This document shows positions 9,487 through 30,092 of a stretch of 64,000 nucleotides of DNA, one piece after another. The translations under genes were made by a program, and so were the position numbers. The number at the start of each line of letters is the position of its first letter. Position 1 is the first letter of the stretch. The notes below the pieces were generated by a model. That model did not search any database and was not told where the DNA came from. It saw only the letters and a list, made by a program, of their open reading frames with translations. The stretch is from positions 64,001 to 128,000 of the IMG/VR virus record IMGVR_UViG_3300020576_006967; one strand, given 5' to 3'. This DNA comes from a virus. Its lineage: Duplodnaviria > Caudoviricetes.

Positions 9487-10392
9487 TTAAAGATATTCTT
9501 TTACAATTTTAAATTTGGTGCTGTGTCTTAATTTTCTTAAAGATTTTTCTTTAATTTGTCTAACACGCTCCCTGGTTAAATCGACTTTCACCCCAATTTC
9601 TTCAAGACTTTGAGCTGGTACACCTTCCTCTAAACCGAAAAATGCAACTATTACCTCTTGTTCTTTTTGAGTTAATCTAGATGCTAACATTTGTTTAATT
9701 ACAAACTTCAAATCTTCATTTATTAAACCAGCATCAACGTTTAAAGATGGATCCATTTTTATAAGATCAAGAAGTGTTGTTTGATTGTCGTCGCTAAAAG
9801 GTGTATCTAAGGATTGTGTTTTATTTGAGGTTGTTAGAAGCAAAGCAACATCTTCAATTAAAAAATTCTTTGCTGGAAATTTTTCAGAAAGATAAAAAGC
9901 AATTTCTTCAATAGATGGAGGTCTCTCAAGCTCTTGTTCTAATGCCGATGTTGCATTTCTTATTTTGTTTAGATCGGCAACTTTATTTAATGGTAATCTT
10001 ATTGTTTTTGAATGTTCGTTTATTTGTTGCATAATAGATTGACGAATCCACCACACAGCATAAGAGATAAATTTAAAGCCTCTGGAATGATCAAAACGTT
10101 TTGCGGCCTTAATTAAACCTTCGTTTCCAGCTGATACGAGATCTGGTAGAGATAAACCTTGATTTTGGTATTGTTTTGCAACACTAATAACAAATCTTAA
10201 ATTTGATTTTGCCATTTTGTTCACTGCTAACTGAGATGCATGCGGGTCTTCGTTGTATGCTTGAATTATTTTAGCAAGCTCAACTTCTTCTTCTGCTGTA
10301 ATCCCAGGGATTGTTCCAATTTCATTTAAGTACTTTTCGAAAGAAATTGATTCTCTGTTTGTGATTTGTTTAACGATTTTAAGTTGTCTCAT
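9487..10392 (-). CDS. rpoD: Bacteroidota-type RpoD/SigA sigma-70 factor
   Basis: MRQLKIVKQITNRES..YLNEIG; NLRFVISVAKQY; GFKFISYAVWWIRQSI; LTRERVRQIKEK. Confidence 0.9.
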   Translation of the reverse strand: MRQLKIVKQITNRESISFEKYLNEIGTIPGITAEEEVELAKIIQAYNEDPHASQLAVNKMAKSNLRFVISVAKQYQNQGLSLPDLVSAGNEGLIKAAKRFDHSRGFKFISYAVWWIRQSIMQQINEHSKTIRLPLNKVADLNKIRNATSALEQELERPPSIEEIAFYLSEKFPAKNFLIEDVALLLTTSNKTQSLDTPFSDDNQTTLLDLIKMDPSLNVDAGLINEDLKFVIKQMLASRLTQKEQEVIVAFFGLEEGVPAQSLEEIGVKVDLTRERVRQIKEKSLRKLRHSTKFKIVKEYL

Positions 10393-10481: not shown

Positions 10482-10521
10482 AAAAAACCCTCAACTTACT
10501 ATTGTTCGGTTGAGGGTTTTT
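10482..10521 (-). terminator. Intrinsic terminator closing the tmRNA locus
   Basis: aaaaaccctcaac / gttgagggttttt 13-bp inverted repeat. Confidence 0.8.
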
Positions 10522-10530
10522 GTTCGATCC

Positions 10531-10623
10531 TTAAACCAATTCAGCCACAAGGACTGCACTAGTTTCAGGCGTATTAGCGTAAGCGATTGCGCTTTGAGCT
10601 AATACCTTTGTTAGGTTTTTGCC
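10531..10623 (-). other. tmRNA tag reading frame (A)GKNLTKVLAQSAIAYANTPETSAVLVAELV*
   Basis: Resume context ATCAAAC-GGC resembles Bacteroidota tags that start with Gly; 30 codons then TAA within a hairpin. Confidence 0.65.
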
Positions 10624-10700
10624 GTTTGATAGGCTGATTAATCTCTCCTTGTAGCTTTTGATTCGTGTTCGAAATCATTCGCCCCCATTTTTTCAGTTAA

Positions 10701-10883
10701 TTACTTAACCGAGGTTGTAGTAGCTGCTGTTGTCATTGTATCAGCGCAAACCGCTTTACAAGAATCAACCGCTACAGTGTCACACTTAGGCGCTTCCGTT
10801 TCCGTAGCTACTTCAGTGGCCGTATTTGTACAAGCTCCTAGAGCTAATGCCAAAACGATCAATAGTTTTTTTGTTGTTTTCAT
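10701..10883 (-). CDS. Small lipoprotein inside the tmRNA intervening segment
   Basis: MKTTKK-LLIVLALALGAC lipobox; Thr/Ala-rich body with three more Cys. Confidence 0.8.
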   Translation of the reverse strand: MKTTKKLLIVLALALGACTNTATEVATETEAPKCDTVAVDSCKAVCADTMTTAATTTSVK

Positions 10884-10884
10884 C

Positions 10885-10952
10885 TAGTGGAAGCGCAGGG
10901 TATAGAGCCCTGGTTACACAAATTTCGACTACATATCAACGAGCTTAATCTG
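10885..10952 (-). ncRNA. ssrA: tmRNA acceptor piece (circularly permuted two-piece tmRNA)
   Basis: GATTAAGCTC..TGTAGT..ATTTGTG (P2), T-arm CAGGG-CTCTATA-CCCTG, acceptor strand CGCTTCC, discriminator A, then CTA; 5' end approximate. Confidence 0.85.
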
Positions 10953-18987: not shown

Positions 18988-20928
18988 ATGACAGTACAAT
19001 TAAAGCATTCATTTGGAATAATAGAATTTACGAGAGCGGGAAATGCGTATTTAATTTCAGAAAGTAAAAAAATAAATAAAGACGTTTTCATCCCAAGAGG
19101 AAGAACTGGAGAGGCCTTTAATGGAGATACGGTATTCGTTGCATTTAAACCTGGTAGAATTCCAGGTGAAACAATTGGCCATGTTATAGGTGTAAAATCT
19201 AGGTTTAGAAATGACTATCTAGGTACTTGTGAAATAAATGATGAAACGGGCGAGTTTGTAGTTAAAGCTACTTCTAAAAAATTTCCAATAGAATTTACAA
19301 TTCCAAAGCTTTACATAGGTCTAGCTAAGGTTGGAGACAAAGTTTCTGTTAAATTAAGTAAGTGGGATAAAAAATTAAACAAGCCTATCGGTCTTATCAA
19401 AGAAGTGTTGGGTAAAGCTGGTTTACACTCTACTGAAATGAAGGCGATTTTACTTGAAAACAATATTGAATCTAAATTTCCAGATTCAGTAATGAAAGAA
19501 GCGGAAGAAATTAACTTTGAAATTGATGCTGAAGAAATTGCTAAAAGAGAGGATTTTAGAGAGGTTGTTTGTTTAACAATTGATCCAAAGGATGCTAAAG
19601 ATTTTGATGATGCTTTATCTTTTAAAAAAATTGACAACAACATTTATGAAGTTGGAGTCCATATTGCAGACGTTTCTCATTATATGAAACCAGAAAGCGA
19701 GTTGGATGTAGAAGCTTACAGAAGATCAACATCCACATATTTAGTCGATAGATGCATTCCAATGCTTCCAGAGAGGCTTTCAAATGGAGTGTGCTCTCTT
19801 AGACCAAATGAAGAAAAATTGTGTTTCTCAGCTATTTTTATGTTGTCTTACACTGATCCAAGTGTAAACGGGCCAGCAAGAGCAAAAATTATAAATTCTA
19901 GATTTGCTAGAACTGTAATTAAGTCTGGAAAAAGATATTCATATGAAGATGCTCAGGAATTAATTGAAAACACAACACAAGCAGTCGATAATTATGATTG
20001 GGCAGTTCTTACATTAAATTTATTAGCAAAAGCATTAAGGACTGAAAGGTTTGAGCATGGCGCTGTGTCTTTTGAAAAACGTGAAGTGAAATTCAAGCTT
20101 GACGAAGATGGGTCGCCAATTGGTGTGTATTTTAAAGAATCAAAAGATTCAAATAAATTGATTGAAGAGTTTATGCTATTGGCTAATCAATCTGTAGCTA
20201 AATATATTGGGGAAAAAGATTTACCTTGTATATATAGAACCCATGCATTGCCATCTATGGAGCGTTTACAGGAGTTATCTATATTTGTTGAACAGTTTGG
20301 TTACACATTCAAAGTAAGCGAAGACGACGAGGCAAATAAAGAAGCTTTAAATAAATTACTTTTGGAAGTAAAAGGTTCAAATCATGCCAACATTATAGAA
20401 ACTGTAGCTGTTAGATCTATGTCAAAAGCTATTTACACAACAGCTGCACTTGGTCACTATGGTCTTGGATTTAAATATTATGGACATTTCACAAGTCCAA
20501 TTCGTAGATATCCAGATGTTATTTTACACAGATTGCTTGAAAGTTTGATGGCCACTGGAAACGTAGTTGCACCAAGGTTGCAAATTCAGTGTGATCATTG
20601 TTCTGAATTAGAAGGAAAAGCTGTAAAAGCAGAAAGAGATTCAATTAAGTTTAAACAAACAGAGTTTATGCAAAACAAAATTGGGCAAACATACGAAGGC
20701 GTTGTTTCTGGTGTTTCTAATTGGGGTTTACATGTAGAAATAAAAGAAAATGGGTGCGAAGGCATGATTGGAACTGGAGAAATGGGCGCTTTGGGTTATG
20801 TGCTTGATGAAAAAAATTATAAATTTATTAAAGAAAACAATGTAAAAATTTCTCTTGGAGACAAGGTGAATGTGAAAGTTTTCGGTGTAAATTTAACGAA
20901 GAGACAAATTGATCTTAATTTAATTTAA
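18988..20928 (+). CDS. rnr: Ribonuclease R (RNB family)
   Basis: TIDPKDAKDFDDALS, VHIADVS, HFTSPIRRYPD, C-terminal S1 domain. Confidence 0.92.
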   Translation: MTVQLKHSFGIIEFTRAGNAYLISESKKINKDVFIPRGRTGEAFNGDTVFVAFKPGRIPGETIGHVIGVKSRFRNDYLGTCEINDETGEFVVKATSKKFPIEFTIPKLYIGLAKVGDKVSVKLSKWDKKLNKPIGLIKEVLGKAGLHSTEMKAILLENNIESKFPDSVMKEAEEINFEIDAEEIAKREDFREVVCLTIDPKDAKDFDDALSFKKIDNNIYEVGVHIADVSHYMKPESELDVEAYRRSTSTYLVDRCIPMLPERLSNGVCSLRPNEEKLCFSAIFMLSYTDPSVNGPARAKIINSRFARTVIKSGKRYSYEDAQELIENTTQAVDNYDWAVLTLNLLAKALRTERFEHGAVSFEKREVKFKLDEDGSPIGVYFKESKDSNKLIEEFMLLANQSVAKYIGEKDLPCIYRTHALPSMERLQELSIFVEQFGYTFKVSEDDEANKEALNKLLLEVKGSNHANIIETVAVRSMSKAIYTTAALGHYGLGFKYYGHFTSPIRRYPDVILHRLLESLMATGNVVAPRLQIQCDHCSELEGKAVKAERDSIKFKQTEFMQNKIGQTYEGVVSGVSNWGLHVEIKENGCEGMIGTGEMGALGYVLDEKNYKFIKENNVKISLGDKVNVKVFGVNLTKRQIDLNLI

Positions 20929-24375: not shown

Positions 24376-26142
24376 ATGAGCAAATTTCTGGAAGACTGGT
24401 GCTTGCCATTATATTTTTATGATGGAAAGGATGACCCTAAAATAAAAGAAGACCTAGACAGGTTTAAAGATAAGTGTGAAAATTATATTAAAAAATATGA
24501 AGGCAACATTGCTAAATTATCTGATGAGGAATTTTTAATTTTTTTAGAAGATTCTGATAATCTACAAATTGAAGAAACTAAAATAAGTTTTTATTTTGAA
24601 CTTTTGATCTCTTTAAACAATCACGACGAAAGCACTCAGAAAGAAATTACAAAATATGGAAAAATATTCTCAGAATACTTTTCAAAGCTTTTTTTTGTTG
24701 ATGAAGAATATAAAAAAATAGGTTACAGCAACCTTATTTTAAAATCTGAAACAAAACTATTTGAACCTTTTAAAAATTATCTAATTTCTCTTGCAAAAGA
24801 CTTAAAACACGTATTAAGCCCAGAAGAGGAGAAGATTTATATTAAATTAGACAATGCTTCAAGTACAAATATGTACGAAGAACTTACAACATCTTTTGAG
24901 TTTACGTTTAATGATAAAATAATTGGCGAATCTGAAATTTTTGATTTAAGACAACATAAAAATAGGACTATAAGAAAAAAAGCTTATGAAAGCATAGCAA
25001 GGGTTTATGGAAACAAAAATAATCAAATTGTTCTTGGAAATTTATATAGCATTGTTTGCAAGCAAGACATAGTAGATTTAGAAATTAGAAAATATAATTC
25101 AGTAATGACCTCAAGAAATATTTCTGAAGAGGTTGAAGATGTTACTGTAGATATATTAATTGATACAGTTGAAAAAAATTATCCTTTATATCATAAGTTT
25201 TTGAAAAAAAAGAAAGCTGTGATAGGGTTAGAAAAAATGTTTGTTTATGACGTACCTGCTTCAATTCCAAAAGAAAAAAACTCACAACATAAATTAGCCT
25301 TTAGAGATGGGTGGAAAATATACAAAGATACAATTCAAAAGGTCGATCCTGAGTTGGCTAAATTTTCAGAGGAAATGCTTCTTGGCGGTAGAATGTCAAT
25401 GTTCCCAAAGCCAGGAAAGTCAAGAGGGGCATTTGCTCAATATTCGAAGCACACACAACAGTTTGTATTATTAAATTGGACTGATTCTGTGAGTGATATA
25501 TTTACAATGGCGCATGAACTAGGTCATGCTTTTCATGGACATTTATCTAAGGGGCAGAAAAATCTTGTTTATGATACGCCTTTAATTTTGGCAGAAACAG
25601 CGTCAATTTTTAATGAGACTTTAATGTTTGAAACAATGTTAAAGGAAATTGTTGACAAAGATGAACGTAGGAGAATAATTTGTGATCGTTTAAATGATTT
25701 GTTTTTAACCATATTTAAGCAGGTTGCATATACAATATTTGAAAAAAGGTGCCATGAGTGCTTTTTAAAAAACCAACCATTGACTTACTCCGACTACAAC
25801 AAAATGTGGATGGAAGAAATGGTAAAGCTTTACGGCAAAGACGTGGATGTTAACCCAGAAATAACACAACATGGCTGGTCTTCTATATCTCACATTTATG
25901 ATACACCATTTTATTGCTATACATATGCGTTTGGCAACATAATAAGTTTGAATCTATATCAAAACTACAAAAATTCAAAAGATAAAAATGATTTTATAAA
26001 AAAATACCACAAACTACTTTCTTCAGGTGGTTCAGATACTCCAGAGAATCTTTTGTATAAAATTTTTAAAATAAAATTTGATGAAAAATTTTATCAAATA
26101 GCATTTGACAACATTAAGGACTTAATTAAAAAAATAAAATAA
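24376..26142 (+). CDS. pepF: Oligoendopeptidase F (M3B)
   Basis: GKSRGAF, HELGHAFH, AETAS, FYCYTYAFG. Confidence 0.85.
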   Translation: MSKFLEDWCLPLYFYDGKDDPKIKEDLDRFKDKCENYIKKYEGNIAKLSDEEFLIFLEDSDNLQIEETKISFYFELLISLNNHDESTQKEITKYGKIFSEYFSKLFFVDEEYKKIGYSNLILKSETKLFEPFKNYLISLAKDLKHVLSPEEEKIYIKLDNASSTNMYEELTTSFEFTFNDKIIGESEIFDLRQHKNRTIRKKAYESIARVYGNKNNQIVLGNLYSIVCKQDIVDLEIRKYNSVMTSRNISEEVEDVTVDILIDTVEKNYPLYHKFLKKKKAVIGLEKMFVYDVPASIPKEKNSQHKLAFRDGWKIYKDTIQKVDPELAKFSEEMLLGGRMSMFPKPGKSRGAFAQYSKHTQQFVLLNWTDSVSDIFTMAHELGHAFHGHLSKGQKNLVYDTPLILAETASIFNETLMFETMLKEIVDKDERRRIICDRLNDLFLTIFKQVAYTIFEKRCHECFLKNQPLTYSDYNKMWMEEMVKLYGKDVDVNPEITQHGWSSISHIYDTPFYCYTYAFGNIISLNLYQNYKNSKDKNDFIKKYHKLLSSGGSDTPENLLYKIFKIKFDEKFYQIAFDNIKDLIKKIK

Positions 26143-26143
26143 C

Positions 26144-26638
26144 ATGAAAAAAGAAACAATACAAAAATTTTTAGATGCTGGCAAATTAAAAGAATTAGAA
26201 TTCTGTAAATTATTTTCAGATGATGATGTGGTTTTAGCAACACCAGAACAAGACATGAAAGAACATTGGGATGTAATGATTCGTGGAACAAAGTACGATG
26301 TGAAAGGAATAAAGAAAGTAAATAGAAACGATAACGAAGGAAACGAAGATATTCATTGGCTGGAAATTAAAAATGTGAACAAACAAACTGGGTGGGCATA
26401 TGGCGGTGCAGATAGATTTGCTTTTGAAGTTAAAGATTATTGGATATTGGTTGAAAAATCAGATTTACAAGGTTTTATTTCTGAAAATGTAAATAAAAAA
26501 GTAATTGTTAGTAAGCCAGAACTTTATCATTTATACAGAAGAAACGGAAGACAAGACCTTATAGTCCTTGTAAAAACAATGGATTTGTGTTATTTGTCGA
26601 CGGAAATTATAAAAAAACCCAGACAACTTGCACAATAA
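26144..26638 (+). CDS. PD-(D/E)xK nuclease-like protein
   Basis: E..HWD..DVKG..WLEIKNV..GW. Confidence 0.55.
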   Translation: MKKETIQKFLDAGKLKELEFCKLFSDDDVVLATPEQDMKEHWDVMIRGTKYDVKGIKKVNRNDNEGNEDIHWLEIKNVNKQTGWAYGGADRFAFEVKDYWILVEKSDLQGFISENVNKKVIVSKPELYHLYRRNGRQDLIVLVKTMDLCYLSTEIIKKPRQLAQ

Positions 26639-26662
26639 AAAATAAATCATTAAATTTATAAC

Positions 26663-27379
26663 ATGAAAAAGAAATTGGTTGTTTTAAGTGGTGCGGGTCT
26701 TGATACAGAGGCTGGAATACCAACTTTTAGAGATAGTAATGGCCTTTGGGAAAATTACAACGTTGAAGATGTGGCAAGTCCCAAAGGATGGATCTCAAAC
26801 CCAGAATTGGTTTTAAGATTTTACAACGAAAGAAGAAGGCAGTTGGCTAGCGTAGAACCTACAGAAGCGCACAAGTTATTTGTAAAGCTAGAAGAGTATT
26901 TTGATGTATATCACATTACTCAAAATATTTCAGATTTATTAGAAAGAGCTGGAGCTAAAAATATTTTGCATCTTCACGGAGAACTTGTAAAAGCAAAAAG
27001 TTCAAGTGGCCTTGGAGAAAGCAAATTTATTGGTTACGAAGACATAAATGTTGGTGACTTGTGTGAAGACGGATTTCAAATGAGGCCAGATATTGTGTGG
27101 TTTGGAGAAATGGTACCAATGATTAAAAAAGCAGAAGACATCACCTTGTTTTCAGATATTTTTGTTATAGTGGGTACTTCTCTAAATGTATACCCTGCGG
27201 CTGGATTGGTTGGTTGGAACGACCCAGAAGTTCCAATATACATTATTGATCCAACTAGCTCTTCACTAATTGCTAAAAGAGAACAATATACAACAGTGAT
27301 TAAAAAACCAGCTACAGAAGGCGTAGCAGAACTAATGGAAATATTACTTAAAAATTTAGAACCTAATGATCAAATTTAA
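26663..27379 (+). CDS. cobB: Sir2/CobB NAD-dependent deacylase
   Basis: GAGL..GIPTFR, TQN, HLHG, RPDIVWFGE, GTSLNVYPAA. Confidence 0.88.
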   Translation: MKKKLVVLSGAGLDTEAGIPTFRDSNGLWENYNVEDVASPKGWISNPELVLRFYNERRRQLASVEPTEAHKLFVKLEEYFDVYHITQNISDLLERAGAKNILHLHGELVKAKSSSGLGESKFIGYEDINVGDLCEDGFQMRPDIVWFGEMVPMIKKAEDITLFSDIFVIVGTSLNVYPAAGLVGWNDPEVPIYIIDPTSSSLIAKREQYTTVIKKPATEGVAELMEILLKNLEPNDQI

Positions 27380-28487
27380 AAATAACGCTGGGGAGTTTTA
27401 TTCAGGATTACAAACTCATGGATATTTTCCAATAAAAAATTGGTATTTAACTGTTTATGGCGAAATTCCAAATGCTTTTAACACAAATCACTATGTTAAG
27501 ACTGATAGTTTTATTGAGCAGTTTAAAAGCCTTGTAATTGTCAAATCTACAACGTTTAGTACAAATAGCATGTCTGAAATTATTGCAGAAGCAGCTTTTG
27601 ATATTGGTGGAGGAGTAGTTGTAAACTTGAAAGATAATTTCTTTTCAAAAAAAGATCAAATACAAAAAGGTCAGTTATTTTTGTATTATACAAAAGAAAC
27701 AGAAGAAGTAAAAAAAATAAAAAAATATTTAATAGACAACAAAGTTGAAGACGAGAAGAAGGGTATTATAAACCTTGTGTGTCAATCTCAAAACGGGTTT
27801 TATTTAAAAGAATATACTATTAAAAATTCTCCAATTGATTTTGATGCAAACTACAACGAAGACTTTAAACAAGTTGACAAAATTATAATGAGTAGATTGA
27901 GCAAAGAGAACGATAAGGGGCTTGTCCTTCTTTATGGTGATCCAGGCACTGGTAAATCTTCCTACATTAGGAGAATCATCAACGAAGTGGACGATAAGAG
28001 AATTTTATATATGCCACCAGACATGACGGCGCAATTATCAAGCCCATCTTTGGTTCCATTCCTTTCAGATTATTCAAATTCCATTTTAATCATAGAGGAT
28101 GCGGAAAACGTTTTAATTAAAAGACAGGGTCAGCACAATCAAGCAATTTCAAACATATTAAATATGTCAGATGGTTTATTGGGAGATTGTTTAAACATTC
28201 AAATTGTTGCTACATTTAACACTGATTTAAAAAACATAGACGAAGCTCTTCTTAGAAAGGGAAGATTAATTGCTAAATACGAATTTGGTCATCTTACAAT
28301 TGATAGAATTAAAAAGCTATCTTCGACCCTTGGTATTAAATATAAAAAAGAGTTTAAAACAGTGGCAGACGTTTATAATAGTGATGAAATGAGTTTCGTA
28401 GAAGAAAAACAAACGGTTGGTTTTAAAATAAAAGAACTTAGGGTAGATACAACAATAGACGGAAAAAGCATATTTGATCAAAAATAG
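27366..28487 (+). CDS. AAA+ ATPase
   Basis: GDPGTGKS, IIEDAE, LLRKGRL. Confidence 0.85.
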   Translation: MIKFKNNAGEFYSGLQTHGYFPIKNWYLTVYGEIPNAFNTNHYVKTDSFIEQFKSLVIVKSTTFSTNSMSEIIAEAAFDIGGGVVVNLKDNFFSKKDQIQKGQLFLYYTKETEEVKKIKKYLIDNKVEDEKKGIINLVCQSQNGFYLKEYTIKNSPIDFDANYNEDFKQVDKIIMSRLSKENDKGLVLLYGDPGTGKSSYIRRIINEVDDKRILYMPPDMTAQLSSPSLVPFLSDYSNSILIIEDAENVLIKRQGQHNQAISNILNMSDGLLGDCLNIQIVATFNTDLKNIDEALLRKGRLIAKYEFGHLTIDRIKKLSSTLGIKYKKEFKTVADVYNSDEMSFVEEKQTVGFKIKELRVDTTIDGKSIFDQK

Positions 28488-28525
28488 TGAAACTTTTTTA
28501 TTTAAATAACGTATAAGTAGTAAAG

Positions 28526-28990
28526 GTGGGAAAAATTAAAAAGATAAAAGAACCTTTTAGAATTGAAAATAGGAAGGCAAAATACGAATATAAACTTTTA
28601 GAAAGTTTTGATTGCGGTATTGTGTTGAAGGGCACCGAGATAAAGTCTATACGAGAGAATTCGGCTAATATAGGCGCTGCTTATTGTTATTTGTCAAACG
28701 GACAAGTTATAATAAAAAACATGCATATTTCTGAGTGGAAACATGCTACTACCACACACGATCCAACAAGGGACAGGGTTCTGTTGTTGAAAAAGAAAGA
28801 AATAGAAAAAATTACCAGAGAAGTTAAGACTGCTGGTATAACTCTTGTGCCGACGGTTCTTTACGAAAAAAAGAACATAGCAAAAGTTATCATCAGTTTA
28901 GCCAAAGGTAAAAAAACTAGAGATAAAAGAGATAAAATTCGTGAAGACAATATTAAGCGTGACACAGACAGAGAAATGAATTCTTTTTAG
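28526..28990 (+). CDS. smpB: SsrA-binding protein SmpB
   Basis: ENRKAKYEY..GIVLKGTEIKSIR..HDPTRDRVLLL..GKK..DKR tail. Confidence 0.92.
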   Translation: MGKIKKIKEPFRIENRKAKYEYKLLESFDCGIVLKGTEIKSIRENSANIGAAYCYLSNGQVIIKNMHISEWKHATTTHDPTRDRVLLLKKKEIEKITREVKTAGITLVPTVLYEKKNIAKVIISLAKGKKTRDKRDKIREDNIKRDTDREMNSF

Positions 28991-29030
28991 GAATTATTTT
29001 TTTTATTCTATTTATTATAAATAATAGAAT

Positions 29031-30092
29031 ATGAAAAGAGAATGGTCTGAAAAACAAGTTGATACATTAAAGCAAAATTATGCTAATGGTAAAAAAGAAG
29101 ATCTTATTAAGCTTATAGGAAAAAGTTGGTGTGCTATTTTATGCAAGGCCAACAAGTTGAAATTGCAAAGAGAACTACTTCAGTTAAAAAATGTAGACAC
29201 CTCTAATTGGTCTCTAAAAGAGTTAGAAATATTAAAGAAAAATTATTTTGAATTAAGTAAAGAAGAATTAATAAAACTTATCCCAAACAGAAAATGGTCT
29301 TCAATACAACAAAAAGCATTTTGTTTTAATTTAAAACGAAAAACAGAAAGAGACTCAGAATTAAGTGTCTTATTGAAAGAAAACAATGAGGTGTATTATT
29401 GGCTTGGTTTTTTAATGGCAGATGGGCACTTTTCAGAAAGTTCAATTCAAGTTAATTTAGCTAAAAAAGACATTGAACATTTGAAAAAATTTTCAAAATT
29501 TGTAAAATGTAAAAAGGATCTTGTAAAACCTAATTTCAAAGCTGGTGATAAAAAAGTTTTAAATTTATTGCGACAGAAATTTAAAATTAAAAACAATAAA
29601 ACATATCATCCATGTGATATTGAAAACATAAAAAATGACGATTTTTTATTCTCTTTAATAATAGGGTTTATAGATGGCGATGGATCTATTTGCGCTTCTT
29701 ATGGGAGAACATCGTTATCTGTAAAGTGTCACTCTTCTTGGTTTAATAATTTAGAGATTATGTTAAATGTTTTATGCGGAGAAAATAAAAAAACATATAA
29801 AACAAGAATAAATAGTTACAATTTAGCTTATTTTTTTATTACTGATTTAAGTATTTTGAAAAAAATTAAACTAAAATTGCTAGGACTTAAATTACCAGTT
29901 TTAAAAAGAAAATGGGATAAAATTGATTTAAAAAAAGAGTCTGCAATTGAAGAACATGAAAGATTAAAAAAAATGTGTTATGATAATTTTAAACTTGGAA
30001 AGAAACCTAGTGAAATAACCGACAAAAATAGAGTTAGTGTTAGTTTTTGTTATAAAATGCTTGCAGAATATAGGAAAATTGAAACCTTTTAA
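29031..30092 (+). CDS. LAGLIDADG homing endonuclease with N-terminal Myb-like repeats
   Basis: WLGFLMADG and IIGFIDGDG; WS..E..LK..Y repeats. Confidence 0.8.
   Translation: MKREWSEKQVDTLKQNYANGKKEDLIKLIGKSWCAILCKANKLKLQRELLQLKNVDTSNWSLKELEILKKNYFELSKEELIKLIPNRKWSSIQQKAFCFNLKRKTERDSELSVLLKENNEVYYWLGFLMADGHFSESSIQVNLAKKDIEHLKKFSKFVKCKKDLVKPNFKAGDKKVLNLLRQKFKIKNNKTYHPCDIENIKNDDFLFSLIIGFIDGDGSICASYGRTSLSVKCHSSWFNNLEIMLNVLCGENKKTYKTRINSYNLAYFFITDLSILKKIKLKLLGLKLPVLKRKWDKIDLKKESAIEEHERLKKMCYDNFKLGKKPSEITDKNRVSVSFCYKMLAEYRKIETF

What the first reader, a model, noticed from the sequence alone, without database searches (positions are those of the whole stretch)
10531..10623. Long, non-canonical tmRNA tag ending -AELV
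Seen: from the GGC after ATCAAAC the frame reads GKNLTKVLAQSAIAYANTPETSAVLVAELV* (30 aa). It contains a strong hairpin (GTATTAGC..AAGCG-CAAT-CGCTT..GCTAATAC) and a second one around the stop (TCCTT..AAGGA). Established: typical tags are about 10 aa and end in -AA for ClpXP, while longer tags occur where other proteases such as Lon dominate. Inference: the phage tag may reroute rescued proteins to a different or phage-encoded protease, or spare them from ClpXP. The resume codon was assigned by analogy only; the +1 GCA frame would give AKT*.
Basis: partly seen in the sequence, partly recalled or inferred. Interest (0 to 1): 0.75.

Follow-up and report, generated by a model that had tools for sequence, protein, structure and literature searches.

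The report
Phage tmRNA's long private tag
A large phage of Bacteroidota carries its own split ribosome-rescue RNA, and the 30-codon frame flagged here is very probably its real tag: a selected peptide three times longer than the likely host's and ending in VAELV instead of Ala-Ala, so the fate of tagged proteins is unknown.

Summary
It lies in the coding piece of a circularly permuted (two-piece) tmRNA gene of a 189-kb phage that also encodes SmpB.

I found six further lineages of this gene. All keep the frame open (28-30 codons), and both indels are 3 nt. pN/pS is 0.52 in this frame, against 1.17-1.25 with stops in the other two. VAELV is invariant, although its Leu is written with four different codons. 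The +1 frame (AKT*) is not conserved. Three lineages have no in-frame start codon. A lies at -4 before GGC in all seven, as the tmRNA frame rule requires.

The first hairpin is real and covaries. The TCCTT/AAGGA hairpin is window-specific; a different hairpin, closing at the stop codon, is conserved.

Likely hosts (Bacteroidota) encode 9-residue G..NYALAA tags. Related huge phages with one-piece tmRNAs encode 21-23-residue tags, mostly ending -VA. The long tag is therefore a phage trait, and this clade is the extreme case.

Rerouting to another protease is untested. No HslV-like gene was found; the phage does encode ClpP. This scan has noted long private phage tags on other DNA, but not this clade.

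The parts
10888..10933 (-). Acceptor piece of the two-piece tmRNA: outer and inner P2 5' strands, T-arm (CAGGG-CUCUAUA-CCCUG), acceptor 3' strand CGCUUCC and discriminator A. It is followed by CUA, so CCA is not encoded.
   Evidence: Rfam RF04321 alignment. Co-folding gives the same architecture in 7 lineages. The acceptor stem is 100% paired with 2 compensatory pairs.
10687..10887 (-). Intervening segment (201 nt) that must be removed. It holds a 60-codon lipoprotein-like ORF (10883-10701). It is not part of the tag.
   Evidence: The segment is only 16-21 nt in lineages L212, L214 and L216.
10624..10686 (-). 5' part of the coding piece: acceptor 5' strand GGGGGCG (G3.U pair), D-loop analogue AAUGAUUUCGA, P2 3' strands, a short hairpin in place of pseudoknot 1, and the single-stranded resume context AUCAAAC with A at -4.
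   Evidence: The A-at--4 rule is from PMC2481249.
10534..10623 (-). Tag reading frame: 30 sense codons from resume codon GGC, encoding GKNLTKVLAQSAIAYANTPETSAVLVAELV.
10531..10533 (-). Stop codon UAA of the tag frame.
   Evidence: Its U closes hairpin B.
10571..10605 (-). Hairpin A inside the tag frame (codons 7-18), around the invariant loop GCAAU.
   Evidence: Nine of its 11 pairs show compensatory changes.
10533..10565 (-). Hairpin B (codons 20-30 plus the first base of the stop), the counterpart of tmRNA helix 5.
   Evidence: The pair c20.3-c30.3 covaries A-U/G-C through synonymous changes.
10482..10519 (-). Intrinsic terminator that ends the coding piece about 12 nt after the stop codon. 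There is no room for pseudoknots 2-4.
   Evidence: The stem covaries in relatives (helix 8).
28526..28990 (+). Phage smpB, the protein partner of tmRNA.
   Evidence: PF01668, E 6e-49, 166 bits.
18988..20928 (+). RNase R-like exoribonuclease (RNB, CSD2, S1 domains), a usual companion of trans-translation.

Best explanation
The stretch is the mRNA-like part of a phage-encoded two-piece tmRNA. Inferred maturation: the precursor is cut after the discriminator A of the acceptor piece and before G1 of the coding piece, and the two pieces pair into an alanine-accepting tRNA-like domain. With the phage's SmpB this enters stalled ribosomes and donates Ala. Translation then resumes at GGC (10623) and adds 30 residues ending ...LVAELV, stopping at UAA (10533-10531). 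Shown by comparison: the frame is a selected peptide-coding frame with no start codon, overlaid on two conserved RNA hairpins. Its first module, G-K-x-x-K-x-L-A, is homologous to the start of the 21-23-residue tags of one-piece tmRNAs in related huge phages. Its last five residues are invariant. Inferred function: the tag is a phage-private handling signal, most probably a degron with two parts. The conserved N-terminal module would be an adaptor or recognition site, and the C-terminus lacks the Ala-Ala contact that ClpX uses on host ...ALAA tags. Which protease, if any, reads it is unknown.
For: The tmRNA is real. The Rfam permuted-tmRNA model matches over its full length (36.1 bits, E 3.6e-5; 39-40 bits in compact relatives). 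All 7 lineages co-fold into outer P2, inner P2, T-arm and an intermolecular acceptor stem, built from different sequences; the stem is fully paired (7 bp) in six lineages and L216 has one A.C mismatch. The acceptor stem covaries (GGGGGCG/CGCTTCC, GGGTACG/CGTATCC, GGGGGCG/CGTCTCC) and keeps G3.U. L086 encodes CCA. smpB and an RNase R gene lie in the window. The frame is real. Seven distinct tag sequences are all open, 28-30 codons long, and both indels are 3 nt. pN/pS is 0.52, against 1.17 and 1.25 with stops in the other frames. There are 14 invariant residues, 9 of them written with more than one codon. Leu29 is written TTG/TTA/CTA/CTT, and Ser at one site is written AGC or TCN. Initiation is not conventional. 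The window, L214 and L216 have no in-frame ATG/GTG/TTG, and the G1-to-GGC distance is 63, 64 or 65 nt, so the upstream sequence is in no fixed frame. The resume codon is GGC. A lies at -4 in all 7 lineages, and UA lies at -5/-4 in L210 and L216; PMC2481249 reports this A as the main frame determinant. The phage one-piece tmRNA L182 has the same CAAAC|GGC context, and Rfam aligns its resume codon there. All five Bacteroidota tmRNAs examined start their tags with Gly. The long tag is a phage trait. Seven one-piece tmRNAs from related huge phages encode 21-23-residue tags that start G-N/E and share G-x-x-[LFI]-x-K-[MLV]. C-terminal logic. In E. coli a terminal Ala-Ala is critical for ClpXP degrons and FKLVA is as good as YALAA (PMC10862746). 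Replacing LAA by DAS minimises ClpX binding and makes degradation adaptor-dependent (PMC9382460).
Against: ARAGORN finds nothing, and every Rfam hit of the clade is below the gathering score of 47. There are no pseudoknots, the T-loop is atypical in the window (CUCUAUA), and CCA is not encoded in six of seven lineages. The two covarying hairpins cover about two thirds of the frame, so part of the sequence conservation is RNA-level. The codon alignment was guided by the translated frame, though the 3-nt indels also appear in plain nucleotide alignments. There are only seven lineages, all from metagenomes. There are no expression, processing or tagging data. Everything about the fate of tagged proteins is inference from E. 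coli rules, which may not hold in Bacteroidota. No candidate adaptor or unfoldase was found in the 74%-complete record.
Confidence: 0.78

Rival explanations
1. The real tag is short. Hairpin A stands in for pseudoknot 1, and translation resumes at the GCA after it (10557), giving AVLVAELV (8 residues), a normal tag length.
For: GCA (Ala) is the commonest resume codon. The invariant part of the peptide is mostly in this last stretch. Hairpin A is a strong covarying structure just upstream. The most frequent tag length is 10 aa (PMC11915505).
Against: The base at -4 before this GCA is U in the window and L085 and A only in L086, although A at -4 is the key determinant. Codons 1-21 also carry coding signal on their own: they are open in all lineages, the 3-nt indel lies there, variable columns fall 8/12/16 by codon position, and Leu8 and Ser are written in different codon families. 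The N-terminal module matches the start of tags in one-piece phage tmRNAs, where Rfam places the resume codon at the Gly codon.
Confidence: 0.08
2. It is an ordinary small protein gene. The ATG that overlaps G1 starts a ~51-residue ORF that runs through the 'tag', as gene callers annotated in L085 and L210.
For: In L085, L086 and L210 an ATG 22 codons upstream is in frame. Such an ORF was called on L085 and on L210.
Against: The window, L214 and L216 have an in-frame stop and no start codon upstream. The distance to G1 varies by 1-2 nt, so the upstream part is in no fixed frame. The upstream part changes by RNA-style compensatory substitutions with a strand 200 nt away. A search of 5.8 billion proteins found only the L085 protein itself.
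Confidence: 0.03
3. The RNA is not translated at all. It is a tRNA-like decoy or SmpB-titrating RNA, as proposed for the TLD-only RNA of mycobacteriophage DS6A, and the 'frame' is only structural RNA.
For: Phage TLD-only tmRNA relics are known (PMC4131195). Two hairpins with many compensatory pairs cover the region. Pseudoknots are absent.
Against: Pure structure does not explain the 3-nt indels, the absence of stops in one frame only, pN/pS of 0.52 against about 1.2, or invariant residues written with different codons in unpaired positions. The phage also carries its own SmpB.
Confidence: 0.06
4. Translation resumes one base later at GCA, giving the three-residue tag AKT.
For: GCA is a typical resume codon, and A also lies at -4 from it in the window.
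Against: In L085 and L086 the same frame does not stop after three codons, and it shows no peptide conservation: pN/pS is 1.17 with stops scattered at different places.
Confidence: 0.02

Closest known systems
One-piece tmRNAs of related huge Bacteroidota phages (loci L180-L186 and L003 here; phage tmRNA plus SmpB reported by Al-Shayeb et al. 2020, PMC7162821)
   Same: They are phage-borne, often sit with smpB, and resume at a Gly codon with A at -4. L182 has the same CAAAC|GGC context. Their tags are long (21-23 residues) and share the opening G-x-x-[LFI]-x-K-[MLV]-x-A. ARAGORN misses them too.
   Different: They are standard one-piece genes with pseudoknots and score 46-97 bits on RF00023. 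Their tags end -VA or -AA. The window clade is permuted, lacks pseudoknots, has a 28-30-residue tag with an extra internal segment, and ends -VAELV.
Two-piece (circularly permuted) tmRNAs of Alpha- and Betaproteobacteria and Cyanobacteria (Rfam RF04321, RF01849-51; PMC11915505)
   Same: The gene order is the same: acceptor piece, intervening segment, coding piece. The tRNA-like domain is formed between two RNAs. RF04321 aligns over its full length.
   Different: All scores are below the family cut-off. The clade is in a phage of Bacteroidota, a phylum where the tmRNA database lists 48 permuted instances among about 24,450. There are no pseudoknots after the tag. Four lineages carry a 200-nt intervening segment that holds a gene. 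The tag is two to three times longer and does not end in Ala-Ala.
Bacteroidota host-type tmRNA tags (GENNYALAA and variants)
   Same: Gly is the first tag residue, and the frame follows an A-rich single-stranded leader.
   Different: Host tags are 9 residues and end YALAA. The phage tag is 30 residues, shows no YALAA-like module, and ends ELV.
Long ssrA tags of Mollicutes read by Lon (Mycoplasma pneumoniae, Mesoplasma florum; PMC8403727, PMC9382460)
   Same: They are unusually long tags and examples of a tag that evolved to a different protease.
   Different: Those organisms lack ClpXP, and their tags end in ...AFA-type motifs. Here the likely host has a normal tag system and the long tag belongs to the phage. 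I saw no sequence likeness. No Lon gene was found in the phage record.
Engineered DAS/DAS+4 ssrA variants (adaptor-dependent degradation; reviewed in PMC9382460)
   Same: There is an acidic residue at the third-last position, no terminal Ala-Ala, and an upstream module that could bind an adaptor. This offers a working model for a two-part tag.
   Different: They are artificial E. coli tags. No adaptor is known or was found here. This is an analogy only.

Membership tests
tmRNA (SsrA) | tRNA-like domain: 7-bp acceptor stem with G3.U70 and discriminator A (alanine identity) | tested here: met
   GGGGGCG/CGCUUCC-A in the window. G3.U is kept in all 7 lineages, 2 pairs are compensatory, and the helix is 100% paired among the window, L085 and L086 lineages. 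L216 has one A.C mismatch.
tmRNA (SsrA) | T-arm with a T-loop of the UUCGAAU type, and a D-loop analogue | tested here: inconclusive
   The 5-bp T-stem is present in all lineages. The loop is CUCUAUA in the window, GUCGUA in L086 and L210, UUCGUUA in L212, and canonical UUCGAAU in L216. The D-loop analogue AAUGAUUUCGA aligns to the Rfam consensus.
tmRNA (SsrA) | Encoded or added 3' CCA | tested here: inconclusive
   CCA is encoded only in L086. The others have CUA, CAA or CUC after the discriminator, so CCA would have to be added. The tmRNA database paper notes that this position does not always encode CCA.
tmRNA (SsrA) | Dedicated partner SmpB in the same genome | tested here: met
   PF01668, 166 bits, at 28526-28990.
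tmRNA (SsrA) | Internal open frame without a start codon, beginning at a resume codon four nucleotides after a conserved A | tested here: met
   Three lineages have no in-frame start. All 7 have A at -4. The rule is from PMC2481249.
tmRNA (SsrA) | [quoted passage not shown] 2014 for Carsonella) | tested here: met
   pN/pS is 0.52 with no stops, against 1.17 and 1.25 with stops. The criterion is quoted.
tmRNA (SsrA) | The stop codon lies in or at helix 5 | tested here: met
   Hairpin B closes on the U of UAA in all 7 lineages.
tmRNA (SsrA) | Pseudoknots PK1-PK4 | tested here: not met
   Only about 27 nt lie between P2 and the resume codon, and about 12 nt between the stop and the terminator. 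No pseudoknot search was run. Pseudoknots are reported to be replaceable (PMC2481249), so this lowers typicality, not function.
Rfam RF04321 tmRNA_permuted | Score at or above the curated gathering score (47 bits) | tested here: not met
   36.1 bits in the window, and 39.3-39.7 bits in L212, L214 and L216. The model was built from Alpha- and Betaproteobacteria and Cyanobacteria only.
Canonical ClpXP-type ssrA degron | About 10 residues ending in a hydrophobic residue followed by Ala-Ala | tested here: not met
   The tag is 30 residues and ends Glu-Leu-Val. Host-phylum tags end ALAA. Ala-Ala is critical in E. coli.
Mollicutes-type Lon tag | Long tag in an organism without ClpXP, read by Lon | not testable with these tools
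   The length criterion is met. The protease that reads the tag cannot be determined in silico. No Lon gene is in the phage record, and the host is unknown beyond phylum.

The most novel reading that the evidence does not exclude
The ELV extension is an evolved mask. Related phage tags end in -VA, a ClpXP-competent end in E. coli. In this clade the same ...LVA is buried under three more residues, perhaps after loss of the old stop codon. Proteins rescued on phage-programmed ribosomes would then no longer be direct ClpX substrates. They would be either spared or passed, through the conserved N-terminal module, to a phage-chosen route, for example the phage ClpP with a host unfoldase and an unknown adaptor. 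That would make this a virus-private degron system running beside the host's own tmRNA.
Probability: 0.2. Interest if true: 0.8.

Novelty: new variant of a known kind. Interest (0 to 1): 0.55.

Why it matters
tmRNA tags are the textbook bacterial degron, and almost all that is known rests on short ...LAA tags. This is a phage-borne tag that is clearly under selection as a peptide, three times the length of the likely host's, and without the Ala-Ala contact. It comes with a graded series of relatives (-AA, -VA, -VAELV). That series gives a direct experimental handle on two questions: whether viruses run their own protein-disposal code during infection, and which proteases or adaptors read it in Bacteroidota, where none of this has been tested. 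It also shows that standard detectors (ARAGORN, Rfam thresholds) miss a whole clade of phage tmRNAs. Finally, it is a clear case of one RNA stretch meeting peptide and helix constraints at once, including synonymous sites that covary to keep a base pair.

Tried and rejected
- ARAGORN on the window and on 60 sigma-factor loci found no tmRNA. It also missed seven phage tmRNAs that Rfam finds, so its silence means little.
- Exact or degenerate DNA patterns from the tRNA-like domain found nothing useful. IMG/VR gave 0 hits and then 4 chance hits. The metagenome collection gave 0 hits twice.
- SmpB, the 118-aa neighbour and the 60-aa ORF, used as single-protein queries in IMG/VR, found no relatives.
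- The 51-aa ORF called on L085, used as a protein query, found only itself.
- RF04321 over 49 related phage records gave only weak or spurious hits. The hit next to L003's one-piece tmRNA reuses that gene's T-arm.
- The AAA ATPase beside smpB was considered as a tag reader and rejected. Its only good homologue is in a record without a tmRNA.
- HslV/proteasome, Lon, S41/Tsp, ClpX/ClpA-type AAA_2 and SspB families were not found in the record. The record is only 74% complete.
- The ClpP neighbours are uninformative.
- I scanned the C-termini of all ORFs in the record for a native -ELV signal. Only one doubtful 81-aa ORF ends -INELV.
- The column-shuffle coding test is inflated, because shuffling also breaks up clustered variable columns. 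I rely instead on the frame-to-frame controls.
- No complex prediction was run, because no specific partner was well enough motivated.

Full report
What is there. GGC is at 10623-10621, 30 sense codons follow, and TAA is at 10533-10531. It is followed about 12 nt later by an intrinsic terminator (10519-10482). Upstream on the same strand are GGGGGCGAAUGAUUUCGA (from 10686), a 201-nt stretch containing a 60-codon lipoprotein-like ORF, and a T-arm plus CGCUUCC-A (10933-10888). ARAGORN and Rfam at curated thresholds report nothing. With permissive settings, Rfam's permuted-tmRNA model RF04321 aligns over its full length at 36.1 bits (cut-off 47, E 3.6e-5), with the 200-nt stretch as an insertion between the acceptor and coding pieces. 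The window is part of a 188,933-bp IMG/VR virus record. That record also encodes SmpB (28526-28990, 166 bits) and an RNase R-like enzyme. The adjacent sigma-70 gene is most similar to Bacteroidota RpoD (53-56% identity).

Relatives. DNA patterns and single-protein queries in IMG/VR and the JGI metagenome collection found nothing. Two indirect routes worked. Homologues of the nested 60-aa ORF led to L085, L086 and four near-identical contigs. Sigma-factor homologues at 57-66% identity led to L210, L212/L213/L215, L214 and L216/L217. All carry the same element just upstream of the sigma gene. This gives seven distinct lineages.

Is it a tmRNA? In every lineage the acceptor piece and the 5' part of the coding piece co-fold into the same tRNA-like domain: outer P2, inner P2, T-arm and an intermolecular acceptor stem (fully paired in six lineages; L216 has one A.C mismatch). 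The helix sequences differ between lineages; inner P2, for example, is AUUUGUGU/ACACGAAU in the window and GCUUAAAA/UUUAAGU in L216. The acceptor stem shows textbook compensation (GGGGGCG/CGCUUCC, GGGUACG/CGUAUCC, GGGGGCG/CGUCUCC). The G3.U pair and the discriminator A, which are the alanine identity elements, are kept throughout. L086 encodes CCA and the others do not. The T-loop is odd in the window (CUCUAUA) but canonical (UUCGAAU) in L216. The intervening segment is about 200 nt with the ORF in four lineages and 16-21 nt in three, so the compact form is an ordinary permuted tmRNA gene. There is no room for pseudoknots. Even the compact relatives reach only 39-40 bits on RF04321. That model was built from Alpha- and Betaproteobacteria and Cyanobacteria (PMC11915505). 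I conclude that this is a divergent but real two-piece tmRNA. Formal Rfam membership is not met; the individual defining features mostly are.

Is the frame a tag? The seven tag sequences are 28-30 codons long, and both indels are exactly 3 nt. The frame has no stop in any lineage, whereas the other two frames have stops in six of the seven lineages (0-4 per sequence). Summed over all pairs, pS is 0.49 and pN is 0.26 in the tag frame, a ratio of 0.52. The ratios in the other two frames are 1.17 and 1.25. Variable columns fall 14/14/23 on codon positions 1/2/3. Fourteen residues are invariant, and nine of them are written with more than one codon. The penultimate Leu is written TTG, TTA, CTA or CTT, and one Ser position uses both AGC and TCN codons.

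Conventional initiation does not explain the frame. The window, L214 and L216 have an in-frame stop and no ATG, GTG or TTG upstream. The distance from G1 to GGC is 63, 64 or 65 nt, so the upstream RNA sits in all three registers relative to the tag. In L085, L086 and L210 an ATG overlapping G1 happens to be in frame, which is why gene callers annotated a 50-51-aa ORF there. That ORF has no relatives in 5.8 billion proteins, and its 5' half evolves by RNA-type compensation with the distant acceptor strand.

Where does translation resume? GGC AAA is invariant and is preceded by [CU]AAAC, which places an A at -4 in all seven lineages and U-A at -5/-4 in L210 and L216. Miller et al. (PMC2481249) show that this A (A86 in E. 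coli, four nucleotides before the resume codon) is the dominant frame determinant. The first six codons are A-rich and unpaired, as in other tmRNAs. An internal GCA (10557) would give a normal-length tag, AVLVAELV, but it has U at -4 in two lineages, and codons 1-21 carry coding signal of their own.

Independent support comes from one-piece tmRNAs that I found in seven related huge-phage records (Rfam 46-97 bits). Rfam aligns their resume codons to Gly (or Asp) codons with A at -4, and L182 has the identical CAAAC|GGC context. Their tags are:
- GETFAKLQAVGLLRTEEVYAA
- DNVINKLSAVGLIRTEENISVA
- GNVFNKMAACGLIREEAAVVA
- GNVLNKMALVGLVRQDELVNVA
- GNILNKMALVGLVRQDELVNVA, found twice
- GETKVVNLFDNVQNVVQEVRLAA
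They share the opening G-x-x-[LFI]-x-K-[MLV]-x-A with the window's tag. By contrast, five Bacteroidota genomes chosen from the sigma-factor hits all encode 9-residue tags: GENNYALAA twice, GDNNYALAA, GESNYALAA and GEENYALAA. So Gly as the first residue is a Bacteroidota habit, long tags are a trait of these phages, and the window clade (28-30 residues, ending -VAELV, two-piece, no pseudoknots) is the most derived form. This scan had already noted long private tags on jumbo-phage tmRNAs in other genomes. I reached the one-piece set independently, and sequence look-ups show that the VAELV clade itself had not been reported on other DNA.

RNA structure inside the frame. RNAalifold on the codon-guided alignment gives two hairpins, and 10 of their 20 pairs show compensatory changes. 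Its loop GCAAU is invariant. Hairpin B (10565-10533) runs from codon 20 to the U of the stop codon, like helix 5 of standard tmRNA. One of its pairs switches between A-U and G-C through two synonymous changes (Glu GAA/GAG and Val GUU/GUC), so both the peptide and the helix are maintained.

What the tag does. This part is inference. The invariant C-terminus, maintained through synonymous changes, shows that the end of the peptide matters. It is hydrophobic at the last two positions, as tags usually are (PMC4131195), but it lacks Ala-Ala. In E. coli, Ala-Ala is critical for ClpXP degrons. The best 5-mer in a large screen was FKLVA, which is degraded about as well as YALAA (PMC10862746). Replacing LAA by DAS minimises ClpX binding and makes degradation depend on an adaptor bound further upstream (PMC9382460). 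Most of the related phage tags end -VA, and the window clade has ...[LQ]VA followed by ELV. One reading is that a ClpX-competent end has been covered, leaving a weak C-terminal signal plus a long conserved N-terminal module that could bind an adaptor. A stop-codon loss could have produced this (L182 reads GCU UAA UUG; the window reads GCU GAA UUG GUU UAA), but that rests on a single comparison.

On candidate readers, the record has no HslV/proteasome, Lon, S41, ClpX/ClpA-type or SspB genes. It does have a bona fide ClpP (231 bits). ClpP is also present in four of the seven related records that carry a tmRNA, but genome size and clade confound that association. The AAA ATPase next to smpB does not travel with tmRNAs. 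No ordinary phage ORF ends in a convincing -AELV. The Mollicutes precedent, where long tags are read by Lon (PMC8403727, PMC9382460), shows that tags can switch protease, but it is not the same situation.

Verdict. The frame and the resume codon are well supported. The fate of tagged proteins is open. It is a new variant of a known kind: tmRNA, two-piece tmRNA, phage tmRNA plus SmpB (PMC7162821) and long tags are each known. What I did not find described in the papers I searched is a selected 28-30-residue -VAELV tag on a minimal two-piece phage tmRNA, nested in a family of long phage tags.

Noticed in passing
L184:2976-3382 (-), L186:2859-3264 (-), L003:2496-2901 (+): GOLLD RNA (RF02032) lies about 1 kb from the one-piece tmRNA in two huge-phage loci, at 288 and 308 bits. 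L003 has a weaker GOLLD hit (63 bits).
   Followed up: no
L003:1197-1399 (+): Hatchet ribozyme (RF02678, 55 bits, above its cut-off of 51) in a phage contig that also carries a tmRNA and a sigma factor.
   Followed up: no
L180-L186, L003: ARAGORN reports none of the seven one-piece phage tmRNAs that Rfam RF00023 scores at 46-97 bits. Surveys that used ARAGORN alone, such as PMC7162821, probably undercount phage tmRNAs.
   Followed up: partly
window 10687-10887 (-); L212:1737-1752, L216:1674-1694: The spacer between the tmRNA pieces is about 200 nt and holds a 60-codon lipoprotein-like ORF in four lineages. It is only 16-21 nt in three others, so the gene was inserted into, or lost from, the spacer within this clade.
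   Followed up: partly
L086 (about 125-131): One lineage encodes a true CCA after the discriminator base. The others have CTA, CAA or CTC, which implies post-transcriptional CCA addition.
   Followed up: no
window 24376-30092 (+): The genes around smpB are an M3 oligopeptidase (24376-26142), SIR2 (26663-27379), a classical AAA ATPase (27366-28487) and a LAGLIDADG-like ORF (29031-30092). The AAA ATPase does not co-occur with tmRNA in related phages.
   Followed up: partly
G000:C1:56127-56849 (= L209:1318-2040), just upstream of the window: A bona fide ClpP (231 bits) with no ClpX/ClpA-type partner in the 74%-complete record. Similar ClpP genes occur in four of the seven related phage records that carry a tmRNA.
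   Followed up: partly
whole record G000: None of 545 ORFs of at least 60 aa ends in Ala-Ala. One 81-aa ORF (G000 170307-170552, minus strand) ends -INELV.
   Followed up: no
window 9487-10392 (-): A phage-encoded RpoD-like sigma-70 factor lies directly downstream of the tmRNA terminator. This pairing is syntenic in all seven lineages.
   Followed up: partly
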